In this document: positions 1 through 57,852 of the stretch, piece after piece
Layout: each line of letters begins with the position of its first letter
Position numbering within the stretch: the stretch's first letter is position 1
NCBI GenBank assembly: GCA_964016885.1
Contig: OZ024743.1
Location: 2,852,001-2,916,000 of the forward strand
Direction: 5' to 3'
DNA from: Eledone cirrhosa
Lineage: Eukaryota
DNA: 64,000 bases
Made by a program: the position numbers and the translations under genes
Notes under the pieces: generated by a model
What the model was told of the DNA's origin: nothing
Database searches by the model: none
What the model saw: only the letters and a program-made list of their open reading frames with translations

Positions 1-375
1 CCCCCCCCACATAGCTCCATCCCCACCCTATTTCATATGTAATAATATGTTTATGCTTCTAACATTGATTCTCTATCCCCTGCCCACCACCACCATCATC
101 AGTATCACCTCTATCACCATCATAACAACCACTATCACCAATATTACACTTAGCACCATCACCACAATAACCACCAGCAGCACCAGCACTACCATTTCCC
201 CCTTGTAATGTTTCACAGATTGTTAAATGTTACAAACTATGAATGGATTATGTTGGCCATTTGCAATAACCCCACCCCTCCTTCCTCCTCTACACCACTC
301 CCTTCTTCTTCAACGTTACACCTCCCACATGCTATATCTTTGCTTTTTACTTTTCTCACCTCCTCCTTCTCAACT

Positions 376-12145: not shown

Positions 12146-12148
<3 letters not shown>
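11985..12148 (-). mobile_element. RTE-type 3' tail fragment
   Basis: catcatca...tttaacgtc...gcatgggttagatgg...ggctggatgcccttcctaacgccaac. Confidence 0.75.
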
Positions 12149-12181
<33 letters not shown>

Positions 12182-12186
<5 letters not shown>

Positions 12187-12464
12187 AACAACATAAGGCA
12201 ATTATTTCATTTACCAGTGGTTTCTTAAAAGCAAAAACATTTTGCTTTCAATCATCAGAATGAAAAAATCCTGGCGTATTTATTGACATTGGTTTTTAAA
12301 ATCCAATGTCAATAAATACGCCAGGATTTTTTCATTCTGATGATTGAAAGCAAATTTTTTTTGCTTTTAAGAAACCACTGGTAAATGAAATAATTGCCTT
12401 ATGTTGTTTATTACATAACTATAGAGCACTCTTTTTTCCTGGACTTTTCCGACGGAATTACTTC

Positions 12465-12467
<3 letters not shown>
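12182..12467 (+). mobile_element. Spacerless 232-bp palindrome plus 54-bp one-sided tail between (TA)n tracts; putative Penelope-like relic
   Basis: Arms 12182-12297 and 12298-12413 are complementary with about 3 mismatched pairs; CTGATGA-TT-GAAA at 12337-12349. Palindrome is certain, element class is inferred. Confidence 0.6.
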
Positions 12468-12518
<51 letters not shown>

Positions 12519-54822: not shown

Positions 54823-55374
54823 TTGTGTTTTTCCTTTATCTTCAGTTTTGTTGCCATGTCTTGCTGAGTGTCATATTATTATTATCATTATTATTTCTAT
54901 TGACAATATGAAAGTATGAGTATGACAGTTGCAATGAATAAATAAAAATAAAATACCCCTCCCCCAACAAACTATTATATTCTCAATAATAGTTTTTAAG
55001 AGAACACTTTATGACACTTCTGACTTTAACAAAAAATGTAGGCTGGGATGAGGGGGAAAAAGCAACAAATATACAAATAATAAAAGAAAAATGAGGGGTG
55101 GATACAAATAAATGTGAGGTTGGTATTTTATGAATATTGTTGTCTCATGAATTCTTTGGCTGTTCAAAAGTTTTTTTGTGTGTGTATGTATGTATATGCA
55201 GTGTATGTGTGTGTGTATATATATATATATTATATAGAAATGACTTCTACAAGGCACACATATTATATGTATGTATATTTGTGTGTGTGTGTGTATATAT
55301 ATATACACATACTCATATATGTACATACACACAAGTACAAATATATATATAAGCAGGGAAAAGCAGACGTAATA

Positions 55375-55401
<27 letters not shown>

Positions 55402-55409
<8 letters not shown>

Positions 55410-56676
55410 CAAAATGTTAACAAATGAAAAATATTCTCATAATCAAAATATATACTTTATTATATATATTTCAAAGGTACTGTGTTGTTTTTTCGGTACG
55501 TCCTCATCAGACAATATATGATTTGACCGAATTAGCAGCGGAGGTGGGAGTTCAGAAAGTACAATAACTAGGGTAAGAACGGGATGGAAGAAGTTCAGGA
55601 AACTACTGCCACTGCTAGCTGCAAAAGGCTTCTCCCTCAAAATGAAAGGCAGACTGTATGATGCGTGTATCCGAACAGCAATGTTACACGGTAGTGAGAC
55701 CTGGGCGCTGAAGGTGGAAGACTTACGTAGATTAGAGAGAAACGAAGCCTGCATGCTCCGATGGATGTGTAATAGTAATATACGCGAACAAGAAAGCATA
55801 AATGAATTGAGAGAGAGACTGAGCATAAGAGGAATCAAATGCTGTGTGCAGGAGAGGCGGTTGCGTTGGTATGAAGGATGACAGGTGCATAAAAAGGTGC
55901 AGAACACTAGAAGTCAATGGAAGCCGTGGAGTGGCGAGACCCAAGAAGACCTGGAATGAGGTGATAAAAGCCGACCTTACCCAATTACACCTCTCAAAGG
56001 CGATGACACACGACCGTGACCTCTGGCGTCACGCAGTAATACAGAGTACCCAACCTCCCATGGGTACAAGCTGAAGCATATAGACAATATGCCCCCACAC
56101 CCTCCCACTGCAAAGTGGTCGTGGAGGTGCCACGGCAAAAAAGCACCCAGCCCACACTGTAAAGTGGACGTGTAGGCGCCACGGAAAAAAGCACCCAGGA
56201 CTCACTGTAAATGAGGTTGGTGTTAGGAAGGGCATCCAGCTGTAAAAATCAAGCCAAAATCAGTTCCTGTATGAGCAAGGCATGGTCAGCCAACCAGACA
56301 CTGCCCACAACAGGACAACCCGTCTAACCCATGCTAGCATGGAAGAACGGATGTAAAACGGTGATGATGATATATGACATACTGCTACGGTCTTGATTAT
56401 TCAATTCCAGTATTGCCAATACTGGAATTGAATAATCAAGACCGTAGCGGTATGTCATATCAAATCATATATTTTGTCTGATGAGGACGTACTGAAAAAA
56501 CAACATAGTACCTTTGAAATATATATAATAAAGTATATATTTTGATTATGAGAATATTTTTCATTTAACATTTTGAATAATATTAAAAACTCCAGGAAAA
56601 CATTTCCTGTTGAGTGCTTCTAATCTATTGTAAAATTGTATTCGTTGAGTAATCAACGAACCATACTAATCTTTGG

Positions 56677-56677
<1 letters not shown>
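55402..56677 (+). mobile_element. Palindromic hammerhead-motif element (arms ~170 bp, centre 56416) with ~94-bp tail, left arm interrupted by an RTE LINE
   Basis: 55402-55526 plus 56373-56415 is the reverse complement of 56417-56583; CTGATGAggacgtac(t/c)GAAA in both arms; (TA)n on both sides. Confidence 0.7.
55527..56370 (+). mobile_element. 5'-truncated RTE-clade LINE: ORF C-terminus (frameshifted near 55875) and 3' UTR
   Basis: KGRLYDACIRTAMLHGSETW, MLRWM, RRLRWY, RGVARPKKTW, DRDLWR are typical post-RT RTE motifs; stop at 56074; UTR with two modules and (GAT)n end. Confidence 0.92.
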
Positions 56678-56713
<36 letters not shown>

Positions 56714-56717
<4 letters not shown>

Positions 56718-57852
56718 AAAATGGAACGGCAACAAAACAGAGGCAGTACGAACAAAGGTTTATTAGTTTCACGCTCTTGAGAGGGGGGGGGGGCGTTTCG
56801 GGAATAAGCCCTTCTTCAGGCGAAAAGTGTGTGGGAAGAGACTTTCAAGGGTGTGTAGGGGAGTGGGGGAGAGACATTTAGAAAAAAGGGGGTGAGAGGA
56901 AATGGTACAAATGAAAAGAAATATAAAAACATAATAAAAATAAACATGAAGATAAACAAGTGGTGGAAGGGTGTGGGGCGTGTAGGGGTGGAGTGGGGAG
57001 AGGAAGGTGGGGTGTCCGAGCGGGGAGGGCTGAAGGTGGTGTGTGTGTGTGTGTGTGTAGGTGTATGTGAATGTGAGAGTTGGGGGAAGAACAGGGTTGC
57101 ATGTTCAGGAAAAGGTGTGTGTGTGGGGTGGGGTGTAGGTCGGTGTGCGTGTGGGGAGGGGTCAGAGGGGTGGAGGAGGATTCCGGAGGCTGAGTGTGTA
57201 AATATGTGGCGGTACGCACGTGTGTGTGGTGTTTATACGTATTGTGGATGTAGGTGGCGTGTGGGAAAAATTTTTTTTTAGTGTATGTCCGTGGGTAAGT
57301 TCCTAAGGTAGTTCCGTAGAGGGTGTGGTGAGTTGCCGGGTATTTTCCTTGTGATGGAGTTGATTCGTGGGAGCGATGGCCAATGTGTGTAATCCGTGGT
57401 TGGGTTGGTCGGAAGAGAGGAGATGTGGGGTGCGCGCGCAACAGGAAGTGGTCAGAGGGTTGTGTGTCTGTGTGCGGAGAGGTGGTCAGAGATTCAGGGC
57501 ATAGCAGCAGTAGGGGAGAATGGCAGTGGAGAAAGTGGTATTAGTTGTGGGGTGGTGGGAGTGGATGTGTGGGTGAGGGTTAGTGGTGGTAGTAGGGTGT
57601 GTGGTTAGTGTGAGTGCGTGTATATATTTACCGGTAGGTGTGTGTGTGATAAGGGGAGGGAGGGGGGAGAAGAAAGGATGTTAGTATTGTTAGTTGGGGA
57701 AGGGTGGTTGGGTGTGGGGTGGGGGTGTTAGTATGGTTAGTTGTGGGGTGGGCAGTGAAAGGAGGAGTTTGTTAGTGGGGGATATGTGTGGGTCGGGGGC
57801 GGTCGAAGGCTAAATGAATAGGAGTGGGGAGTTCAGGCCGGGGGGGGGGGAA
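56714..57852 (-). mobile_element. ~1.14-kb strand-skewed non-coding insert with 3' hammerhead-like motif (Penelope/retrozyme-like)
   Basis: Minus strand CTGAAGA-A-GGG-cttatt-CCC-GAAA-CGC...GCGT at 56819-56771, then AATAAA; G/T-rich plus strand; TGGTTATATAT on both flanks. Confidence 0.55.

What the first reader, a model, noticed from the sequence alone, without database searches (positions are those of the whole stretch)
55402..56677. Hammerhead-core palindrome with structured one-sided tail inside (TA)n
Seen: removing the LINE gives a ~340-bp hairpin with a 1-nt loop (56416). Each arm has CTGATGA-GGacgtaC(C/T)-GAAA (plus-strand copy near 56478-56497) then AATAAA; only the right arm continues into a tail with two hairpins (CAGGAAA-aca-TTTCCTG 56593-56609; TTCGTTGA-GTAA-TCAACGAA 56641-56660, a GNRA loop). 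Known: Penelope-like elements carry minimal hammerheads near their 3' ends and often insert with an inverted partial copy and a tail on one side. Inference: a microsatellite-targeting PLE or retrozyme family. Stems I and III pair poorly here, so this copy may be inactive.
Basis: partly seen in the sequence, partly recalled or inferred. Interest (0 to 1): 0.75.

Follow-up and report, generated by a model that had tools for sequence, protein, structure and literature searches.

The report
Head-to-head Penelope-like retroelement ends
This hairpin is two broken-off tail ends of a known kind of jumping gene (a Hydra-clade Penelope-like retrotransposon) lying head to head in a TA microsatellite, each with a hammerhead ribozyme motif that is predicted, not shown, to self-cut; the layout is one already described for this class, so it is mostly ordinary.

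Summary
With an 845-bp LINE fragment (55527-56371) taken out, 55402-56583 is a palindrome of two ~167-nt arms (162 matches, 3 mismatches, 3 indels) around one base (56416). A 95-nt tail lies on the right only, and (TA)n flanks both sides. The arm plus tail is the 3' end (pseudo-LTR) of an abundant retroelement. Longer copies run upstream through a 1.2-kb UTR into an ORF whose model best matches telomerase reverse transcriptases. That ORF carries the motifs that define Hydra-clade Penelope-like elements: RWK, DKT, CxCx5C, and GIY-YIG without CCHH. The centre is not fixed and copies are 5'-truncated, so this is not a MITE.

It uses the second GAAA (56516), with an 11-bp helix I, a 10-bp helix II that has compensatory changes in five subfamilies, and a 1-bp helix III with a palindromic loop. 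Rfam misses it.

The tail is the stretch between two fixed 3' ends, read here as reverse-transcription start sites. This matches the published in vitro model.

It is a new member of a known kind. Two points stand out: a hypervariable hairpin loop in the tail, and a hot spot of copy 5' ends behind a TATA box.

The parts
55372..55405 (.). left (TA)n flank, the target microsatellite
55402..55526 (-). left copy, outer part (arm positions about 45-167). Its outer end ATATTATTC merges with (TA)n and is the tail-less 3' end ('site 1'). It holds a damaged hammerhead on the - strand.
   Evidence: covariance model R1 hit 55434-55526 (-), 89.9 bits; my descriptor finds no intact motif here
55527..56371 (+). 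later insertion: 3' terminal ~845 nt of an abundant non-LTR (LINE) family, ending in GATGATGA
   Evidence: 109290 first-look candidates; 1040-aa ORF: Exo_endo_phos, RVT_1, PHD
56372..56415 (-). left copy, inner part (arm positions 1-44)
56416..56416 (.). centre base (C). In longer copies it is the base that precedes arm position 1, so it belongs to the right copy.
56417..56583 (+). right copy, body (arm positions 1-167), the end of the element's 3' UTR / pseudo-LTR
56467..56538 (+). type I hammerhead motif. Helix I 56467-56477 with 56528-56538; CUGAUGA 56478-56484; helix II 56485-56494 with 56506-56515; GAAA 56516-56519; loop 3 UAUAUA 56520-56525; U16.1 56526; A17 56527. Predicted cut between 56527 and 56528.
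   Evidence: 100.2 bits; 0 of 2000 shuffles
56584..56678 (+). one-sided tail. In full-length copies this same stretch runs on into the 5' UTR and ATG. It ends at the second fixed 3' end ('site 2', CTTTGGTY|ATAT).
56589..56615 (+). hairpin with conserved stem (ACTCCAG / CTG..GAGT) and hypervariable loop (variable part 56600-56609)
56621..56630 (+). TAATCTATTG, complementary to CAATAGATTA in the 5' UTR of full-length copies (predicted long-range stem around site 2)
56641..56660 (+). hairpin TTCGTTGA-GTAA-TCAACGAA. One pair changes G-C to A-U in a sister subfamily. It is not kept in family B.
56679..56713 (.). right (TA)n flank

Best explanation
The palindrome is two 5'-truncated copies of the 3' end (pseudo-LTR) of a Hydra-clade Penelope-like retrotransposon, lying head to head in a (TA)n microsatellite and later split by a LINE; it likely arose in one insertion event.

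Shown: the arm plus tail is collinear with the end of a roughly 3.9-kb unit (5' UTR, ~700-750-aa ORF, ~1.5-kb 3' UTR, tail). Copies are 5'-truncated. Copies end 3' at one of two fixed points, arm position 167 or 261. Each arm holds a hammerhead motif supported by covariation.

Inferred: the element's GIY-YIG nuclease nicked both strands of the (TA)n target. Reverse transcription was primed on both strands, from start site 1 for the left copy (no tail) and from start site 2 for the right copy (95-nt tail). Both cDNAs ran to the same 5' point of the RNA, which would be the start of a transcript driven by a TATA box in the pseudo-LTR, and were then joined.

The hammerhead is predicted to cut only as a dimer or with protein help. 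Its role in transposition is unknown.
For: Family and anatomy.
- Arm plus tail had 2762 first-look candidates in the own genome, and the 41 matches that span the whole query were 93-100% identical.
- 22 of the 30 fetched loci have an inverted partner of variable length.
- 7 of the 30 run on 5' into shared sequence. That sequence extends about 1.2 kb and then into ORF pieces.
- First-look candidate counts are 2762 for the arm plus tail against 334 and 418 for two UTR stretches further 5'. The conserved RT protein fragment gave 21097, but that protein search also collects sister families down to about 72% identity, so these counts do not form a simple gradient.
- Of 12 long copies, 8 end at arm position 167, 3 at 261 and 1 is interrupted.
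- In 14 of 20 copies that hold the 5' UTR, the tail lies directly upstream of it.

Protein.
- A sister family has a 750-aa open frame.
- Its AlphaFold model (pLDDT 79.8) best matches telomerase RTs. Foldseek gives E 1e-9. VIA gives Z 18.1/16.9/16.0 (rmsd 2.6/4.2/3.8, aligned 262/333/319), ahead of R2 and LINE-1 RTs.
- The conservation line of 40 homologues shows RWK, ADKT, GLYRDD, CNCx5C, VY..YIG..R..H, CxxC-E and N..CxH. These are the features that Craig et al. 2021 list for the Hydra clade (PMC8557442, section 11 read).
- Atlas neighbours carry GIY-YIG in up to 50% of members and RVT_1 in up to 77%.

Hammerhead.
- On 34 sequences of subfamilies A, A2, B, C, D and E, 93% of cells pair. Helix II pairs in 97.4% of cells, with 5 of 9 pairs changed on both sides. 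Slid controls pair in 30-56%.
- A simple descriptor hits the right arm and 0 of 2000 shuffles.

Mechanism.
- In a sample of 40 of the 186 exact tail 30-mer sites, 23 have an inverted partner. All 23 partners end at 168-177, that is, without a tail.
- 10 of the 23 inner ends and 6 of the 40 right-copy starts fall within -8..+1.
- A 12-bp target duplication flanks a whole pair in L108.
- TATA(A/T)AAA lies 25-32 nt upstream of the A at -4 in most of the 28 copies that continue 5'.
- In vitro, Frangieh et al. 2024 (PMC11167929, main text read) found that a Poseidon PLE nicks and extends both strands, and that the tail is the stretch between two internal RT start sites.
Against: - Pfam does not recognise RT or GIY-YIG in this genome's ORFs. 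Only 1 of 40 homologues matches each family.
- The GIY-YIG fold was not confirmed by structure.
- The unit is about 3.9 kb, while Hydra elements are described as generally under 3 kb.
- Rfam lists no hammerhead here.
- In this subfamily the 10.1-11.1 pair is G-U, not the usual G-C.
- The minimum-energy fold of the 87-nt RNA (-18.0 kcal/mol) is not the hammerhead fold (-9.7).
- No RNA data were available, so the transcript start, the RT start sites and self-cleavage are all inferred.
- Upstream partial copies of full-length elements often run beyond -4, so not all templates start there.
- One copy (L007) has tails on both arms with the same variable loop. That fits copying of one arm from the other rather than two independent primings.
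Confidence: 0.85

Rival explanations
1. The palindrome was made by snap-back: one cDNA (or the finished DNA) folded back and was copied on itself, rather than by separate priming on the two target strands.
For: The loop is only 1 nt. L007 has two full arms with tails and the same variable loop in both. Small inverted duplications occur at some centres (L081).
Against: A snap-back copy of the right arm should carry the tail. In 23 of 23 sampled pairs the partner stops at 168-177, without a tail. In many pairs the two copies are truncated at unrelated points, for example -4..172 with 158..265 or 197..265. Both-strand nicking and extension is shown in vitro for another PLE (PMC11167929).
Confidence: 0.12
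2. The short palindrome with its tail is itself a non-autonomous element (SINE-like or retrozyme-like) that is transcribed and copied as a unit by the PLE enzyme. On this reading the window copy is a daughter of a palindromic master, not a fresh two-strand event.
For: The short copies are more alike (93-96%) than the arms of long copies (86-93%). L023 and L028 share the same odd centre but have different flanks. L101 and L111 share the start point, variable loop and GGTC end, with different flanks.
Against: Centres and arm lengths vary widely in the unbiased sample. Only 3 of 40 are palindromes like this one. There are no tandem hammerhead units and no direct repeats as in retrozymes. In a palindrome the two hammerheads lie on opposite strands.
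Confidence: 0.15
3. It is a DNA transposon: a MITE or foldback element with terminal inverted repeats that targets TA, or a Helitron relic (TA target, 3' hairpin).
For: It has long inverted arms, TA-rich flanks and a hairpin about 18 nt from the right end.
Against: The centre is not fixed. The arms are unequal and truncated at many points. The 'TIR' runs on into a 3' UTR and an RT-type ORF. The target duplication is about 12 bp, not TA. No transposase or Rep/helicase was met in the extended copies.
Confidence: 0.02

Closest known systems
Hydra clade of Penelope-like elements (Craig, Yushenova, Rodriguez, Arkhipova 2021, PMC8557442; abstract, passages and section 11 read; supplement File S1 searched, which lists Hydra-1_Obim from Octopus bimaculoides: 2507 bp, (TA)n)
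   Same: A single ORF with a telomerase-like RT followed by a C-terminal GIY-YIG-type domain. RWK, DKT and CxCx5C are present, there is no CCHH, and CxxC and CxH lie beside E and N. Insertion is into (TA)n. A hammerhead lies in the pseudo-LTR. Copies show 5' truncation, partial tandems, an inverted 5'-truncated copy and a one-sided tail.
   Different: The unit is about 3.9 kb because of a ~1.5-kb AT-rich 3' UTR (described: generally under 3 kb). The tail is 95 nt (described: 30-40 bp). A clear pseudo-LTR is present (the catalogued octopus family is noted as 'no pLTR'). No sequence comparison with the catalogued consensus was made.
Poseidon PAc of Anolis carolinensis, in vitro mechanism (Frangieh et al. 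2024, PMC11167929; abstract and main text read)
   Same: The tail is the stretch between two alternative internal RT start sites near the pLTR/ORF junction. Both DNA strands are cut and extended. Targets are AT-rich. The hammerhead lies near the junction.
   Different: It belongs to another clade (Penelope/Poseidon). Its start sites lie 111-118 nt inside the ORF, whereas here they lie upstream of the ATG. In vitro no strand difference in start site was seen. Here, in 23 of 23 sampled pairs, the partner of a tailed copy has no tail.
Minimal hammerheads of metazoan PLEs (Cervera and de la Pena 2014, PMC4209133; abstract and passages read)
   Same: Type I topology, a long helix II, a 1-bp helix III with a palindromic loop that would pair in a dimer, location in the flanking repeats, and covariation among families within one genome.
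   Different: Helix I is long (8-11 bp, against 4-5). Helix II is 10 bp with a conserved C-C mismatch. 10.1-11.1 is G-U in this subfamily (G-C or A-U in sisters). No unpaired base between positions 9 and 10.1 is evident.
Metazoan retrozymes (Cervera and de la Pena 2020, PMC7229834; search listing and abstract only)
   Same: Non-coding repeats with type I hammerheads, likely mobilised by a retroelement enzyme.
   Different: Retrozymes are tandem units bounded by hammerheads in the same orientation, which give circular RNA. Here there is one motif per copy and the two lie on opposite strands. The sequence is simply the end of a coding element.

Membership tests
Penelope-like element, Hydra clade | Single ORF with a telomerase-like reverse transcriptase | tested here: met
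   The model of the 750-aa ORF (pLDDT 79.8) best matches telomerase RTs by Foldseek (E 1e-9) and VIA (Z 18.1, 16.9, 16.0). GLYRDD and F..D...YPSI motifs are present. Pfam RVT_1 matches only 1 of 40 homologues.
Penelope-like element, Hydra clade | C-terminal GIY-YIG endonuclease without the CCHH motif, with CxxC and CxH beside the conserved E and N | tested here: inconclusive
   The motifs VY..(x)YIG..F..R..H, C.LC.E and N....C.H are conserved in 40 homologues. Atlas neighbour clusters carry PF01541 in 26-50% of members. Pfam GIY-YIG matches 1 of 40 at E 0.0068. The model of the domain alone was too poor to search with (pLDDT 43).
Penelope-like element, Hydra clade | DKT in place of DKG; an RWK motif; linker CxCx5C | tested here: met
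   ADKt.N.Y, RmrWKa and CNCr....C appear in the conservation line. CNCRNRPDC is present in L060. The L059 copy has F for the third C.
Penelope-like element, Hydra clade | Short element (generally under 3 kb) | tested here: not met
   The unit is about 3.9 kb: 5' UTR ~55 nt, ORF ~2.2 kb, 3' UTR ~1.5 kb, tail 95 nt. The paper says 'generally', so this is a difference, not an exclusion.
Penelope-like element, Hydra clade | Insertion into (TA)n | tested here: met
   31 of 40 sampled copies have at least 3 TA units at the 3' flank and 26 of 40 at the 5' flank. The window copy has about 17 units on each side.
Penelope-like element (any EN+ clade) | Pseudo-LTR from partial tandems, an inverted 5'-truncated copy, and a one-sided tail | tested here: met
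Hammerhead ribozyme, type I (PLE minimal type) | Core CUGANGA ... GAAA ... UH with helices I, II and III in the right order | tested here: met
   The core is invariant apart from N7 (U or C). Helix II has 5 pairs with compensatory changes. Helix III is 1 bp with the loop UAUAUA or UAUGUA.
Hammerhead ribozyme, type I (PLE minimal type) | G10.1-C11.1 pair | tested here: not met
   In the alignment the pair is G-U in 16, G-C in 9 and A-U in 9 of 34 sequences. The window copies have G-U.
Hammerhead ribozyme, type I (PLE minimal type) | Match to the curated Rfam hammerhead models | tested here: not met
   No hammerhead family at E up to 10 in 55300-56800 or in four related loci. A second PLE-type motif in the window was also missed, so the models seem blind to this minimal type.
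Hammerhead ribozyme, type I (PLE minimal type) | Self-cleavage | not testable with these tools
   Needs a bench assay.
Metazoan retrozyme | Non-coding tandem units bounded by hammerheads in the same orientation, giving circular RNA | tested here: not met
   There is one motif per copy. In the palindrome the two lie on opposite strands. The sequence is the end of a coding element.
MITE / foldback DNA transposon | Fixed centre, equal terminal inverted repeats, short fixed target duplication | tested here: not met
   Centres and arm lengths are variable. The target duplication is 12 bp in L108.

The most novel reading that the evidence does not exclude
This family would be a natural, nucleotide-level record of the Penelope insertion cycle, which has so far been seen only in one in vitro system. 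Three readings follow. First, a TATA-driven transcript start in the pseudo-LTR, at which a quarter of stump ends pile up. Second, two fixed start sites used asymmetrically, with a tail on one strand only in 23 of 23 pairs. Third, a hairpin loop 25 nt beyond start site 1 that is rewritten at each round of reverse transcription (56 versions in 61 copies), so that it acts as a barcode of single insertion events.
Probability: 0.3. Interest if true: 0.55.

Novelty: new member of a known kind. Interest (0 to 1): 0.35.

Why it matters
Taken alone, the feature is a dead insertion of a catalogued class, so it changes little. Its use is as data.

- The family is abundant and young enough to give many independent junctions. 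With them the two-start-site, two-strand model of Penelope integration, so far based on one lizard element in vitro, can be tested in another clade and in vivo.
- It shows that the curated hammerhead models miss the minimal Penelope type.
- It points to a hypervariable loop with no published explanation that I found in the papers read.

Tried and rejected
- Rfam at E up to 10: no hammerhead in the region, in four related loci or in the second palindrome. Only chance hairpin-type matches came up. Not counted against the motif.
Dropped for the second GAAA.
- An alternative register with a 7-bp helix III: helix I pairs in only 50.6% of cells and the pair next to the cut site pairs in 0 of 21. Rejected.
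- Pfam on ORF pieces and on the 750-aa ORF: nothing. Four homologues gave one sub-threshold RVT_1 match.
- PDB by sequence, with the single protein, the 40-sequence profile and the EN profile: no meaningful match.
- EN domain folded alone from 5 sequences: pLDDT 43, not searched.
- Sequencing runs: no RNA holder listed. Read laying was not used, since contigs cannot show RNA ends.
- Are copy 5' ends enriched at the predicted hammerhead cut? 4 of 40 right copies start 3-6 nt upstream of it. The TATATA there can equally be target sequence, so this is undecided.
- Variable loop made anew at each insertion, or inherited? The two tails of one element differ at 2 loop positions, but also at 7 other positions out of about 137. 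Not decisive.
- MITE, Helitron and retrozyme readings: see the rivals.
- Earlier notes by place and by sequence: nothing.

Full report
THE OBSERVATION

The sequence is as described. Inverted arms 55422-55519/56469-56566 (98 nt, 97%) and 56364-56415/56417-56468 (52 nt, 92%) meet around base 56416. They are parts of one palindrome whose left arm is split by an insert. I place the insert at 55527-56371. With it removed, the left arm (55402-55526 plus 56372-56415) aligns to 56417-56583 with 162 matches, 3 mismatches and 3 short indels. Only the right side runs on for 95 nt (56584-56678). (TA)n lies on both sides.

The insert is the 3' end of a very abundant LINE. A protein piece of it has 109290 first-look candidates in the genome. 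An open copy codes for 1040 aa with Exo_endo_phos, RVT_1 and a PHD finger. The family ends in (GAT)n, as the insert does.

A REPEAT FAMILY, NOT A MITE

The 261-nt right arm plus tail had 2762 first-look candidates in the window's own 3.0-Gb genome. The 40 that were scored gave 63 matches, and the 41 that span the whole query were 93-100% identical. Among the 30 loci fetched:

- the right end is always ...CTAATCTTTGGT(T/C) followed by AT repeats;
- 22 have an inverted partner of very different lengths (41 to 167 nt, and once 261);
- 7 run on 5' of 'position 1' into shared sequence.

So the centre is not fixed.

Following the 5' extension gives about 1.2 kb of AT-rich sequence and then ORF fragments. 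First-look candidate counts are 2762 for the arm plus tail against 334 and 418 for two UTR stretches further 5'. The RT protein fragment gave 21097, but that protein search also collects sister families, so the counts do not form a simple gradient along the element.

THE CODING PARTNER

A sister family (80% identical in the RT piece) has an open 750-aa frame (L059). Pfam finds nothing in it, and PDB sequence searches find nothing. There are 189 homologues of about 700 aa. The few that carry names come from a bryozoan, a coral and an octopod.

An AlphaFold model built on 40 homologues (pLDDT 79.8) matches telomerase reverse transcriptases best. Foldseek gives E 1e-9. VIA gives Z 18.1, 16.9 and 16.0, ahead of R2 (15.2) and LINE-1 (14.7).

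The conservation line of the 40 sequences shows RWK, ADKT, GLYRDD, a CNCx5C linker, VY...YIG..F..R..H, CxxC next to a conserved E, and N....CxH. Point for point, this is the description of the Hydra clade in Craig et al. 2021 (PMC8557442, section 11). That description also says almost all Hydra families insert into (TA)n and carry hammerheads. Their supplement lists a Hydra family from an octopus.

The GIY-YIG domain is supported by motifs, by Atlas neighbours and by 1 of 40 Pfam matches. My attempt to fold it alone failed (pLDDT 43).

WHAT THE TAIL IS

Of 12 long copies, 8 end at arm position 167 (GAATAATAT, then AT repeats), 3 end at 261 with the tail, and 1 is interrupted. In 14 of 20 copies that hold the 5' UTR and ATG, the tail lies directly upstream of the 5' UTR (...CTTTGGTC ATATTTAGCTCCCAGAAGG...ATG), itself preceded by a variable part of the arm. 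So the arm plus tail is the pseudo-LTR of a partial tandem. The 'tail' is the stretch between two alternative 3' ends of insertions. Family B has the same two ends.

This is what Frangieh et al. 2024 (PMC11167929) found in vitro for a lizard Poseidon element: reverse transcription starts at two internal sites of the RNA, the tail is the stretch between them, and the protein cuts and extends both strands of an AT-rich target.

AN UNBIASED SAMPLE OF JUNCTIONS

The first 30 loci were picked by score and so favour full-length matches. I therefore took 40 of the 186 exact matches to a 30-mer of the tail.

- 23 of 40 have an inverted partner next to them. All 23 partners end at 168-177, that is, without a tail. 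If about 3 in 11 ends carried a tail at random, 23 of 23 would be very unlikely. This is a rough figure from a small base.
- The inner ends vary and are independent in the two copies, which argues against simple fold-back copying.
- They are not uniform either. 10 of 23 partner ends and 6 of 40 right-copy starts fall within -8..+1. A further 6 of 40 starts fall at 194-202 and 7 of 40 at 155-169.
- Only 3 of 40 are near-perfect palindromes like the one in the window.
- In L108 a 12-bp duplication (ATACCAGTACAT) flanks the whole pair, so a pair can be one event.

Upstream of the -4 hot spot, most of the 28 copies that continue 5' have TATA(A/T)AAA 25-32 nt before the A of TCACTGC. I read this as a promoter in the pseudo-LTR. 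The many 167- and 261-nt stumps would then be cDNAs that ran off the start of that transcript. This is inference: no RNA data were available, and many upstream partial copies run beyond -4.

THE HAMMERHEAD

With the second GAAA (56516-56519) the motif is:

- helix I: AUAUAUUUUGU with AUAAAGUAUAU (11 bp);
- CUGAUGA;
- helix II: GGACGUACUG with UAGUACCUUU (10 positions, one conserved C-C mismatch);
- GAAA;
- a 1-bp helix III closing the palindromic loop UAUAUA;
- cut site after UA (56527|56528).

On 34 sequences from subfamilies A, A2, B, C, D and E in this genome, 93% of cells pair. Helix II pairs in 97.4% of cells, and 5 of its 9 pairs change on both sides. The first eight pairs of helix I pair in nearly all sequences, with only G-U/A-U changes. 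Slid controls pair in 30-56%. The core is invariant except N7.

A register with a 7-bp helix III fails in helix I. A simple descriptor finds the right-arm motif and nothing in 2000 shuffles. It does not find the left-arm copy, which has a 2-nt deletion in helix I and a mispair in helix II.

The architecture (long helix II, 1-bp helix III with a palindromic loop, location in the flanking repeat) is that of the minimal PLE hammerheads of Cervera and de la Pena 2014 (PMC4209133). Those cut poorly in vitro and are thought to act as dimers.

Rfam misses this motif. It also misses a second one in the window, so its silence is not counted. Against activity: 10.1-11.1 is G-U here, and the hammerhead fold (-9.7 kcal/mol) is well above the minimum-energy fold (-18.0).

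THE TAIL'S 'STRUCTURE'

The stem ACTCCAG/CTG..GAGT is conserved. The stretch after CCAGGAAA has 56 distinct versions in 61 copies, differing in length and sequence and mostly T-rich. Two control stretches of similar length have 9 versions in 66 copies and 7 in 67. The same spot varies in subfamily A2 and in family B.

Ordinary decay of dead copies cannot do this while the flanks differ by about 5%. I suspect that reverse transcriptase stalls or slips at this hairpin, which would also explain the copy starts at 194-202. I could not show it.

Hairpin 2 (56641-56660) has one compensatory change, G-C to A-U in subfamily A2, and is not kept in family B.

RNAalifold predicts a 12-bp stem between the tail (UAAUCUAUUGUA) and the 5' UTR (UGCAAUAGAUUA) that encloses start site 2, with one pair changed on both sides in family B. 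This resembles the stem-loop at the start sites of the lizard element, but it is only a prediction.

VERDICT

The palindrome is a head-to-head pair of pseudo-LTR stumps of a Hydra-clade Penelope-like element in (TA)n, later hit by a LINE. The layout is described in the literature, and such elements are catalogued in an octopus, so this is a new member of a known kind.

Earlier notes of this scan reached similar readings for other windows. They are not independent evidence.

Noticed in passing
window 12148-12513: A second palindrome of the same build from a different family. It runs (TA)n, left arm ~12185-12288, short loop, right arm ~12304-12413, one-sided ~54-nt tail, (TA)n. Each arm has a hammerhead by my descriptor (CTGATGA at 12337 on + and at 12258 on -; helix II 11-12 bp, helix I 7 bp, loop 3 CCACTGG). 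Rfam lists no hammerhead for it.
   Followed up: partly
window 56600-56609 and the same spot in L002-L120: A hypervariable stretch in the loop of a conserved hairpin in the tail. It has 56 distinct versions in 61 copies, against 9 of 66 and 7 of 67 for control stretches. It is also variable in sister families. The cause was not established.
   Followed up: partly
L004, L006, L009, L021, L033-L044, L062-L075 (about 30-40 nt upstream of arm position 1): A TATA(A/T)AAA box lies 25-32 nt before the A of TCACTGC, where many truncated copies end. It is a possible promoter and transcript start inside the pseudo-LTR.
   Followed up: partly
window 55527-56371; L125 1086-4208: The inserted LINE belongs to a very large, apparently young family: 109290 first-look candidates, and several copies with the same open 1040-aa frame. 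Its ORF also matches a PHD finger (27.2 bits, cut-off 24) after the RT domain.
   Followed up: partly
flanks in L009, L028, L030, L036: Another repeat that ends ...GCGTTATGGTCCATCTGGTTCCTTACCACACTTCCTTCGTT directly on (AT)n lies next to several copies. It may be a further (TA)n-associated element.
   Followed up: no
L017, L040, L059, L095, L096 flanks; L035 794-975: A tRNA-like SINE (...GGCAGTATCGGTAGAGGGTCGGACGCCATGCTTTG...) occurs repeatedly beside or inside the copies.
   Followed up: no
L076, L077, L080 (tail and 5' UTR): The tail segment GTTGAGTGC and its look-alike GGTTGAGCGC in the 5' UTR, about 85 nt apart, carry the same T-to-A change in one subfamily. The two direct repeats seem to evolve in concert.
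   Followed up: no
L104 733-810; L111 733-810: Two tails face each other across a short (AT)n (tail-to-tail copies). One microsatellite can therefore be hit from both sides, or more than once.
   Followed up: no
window 56780-57260: A G-rich, GT/GGGG-rich stretch lies just downstream of the right (TA)n. It was not examined.
   Followed up: no
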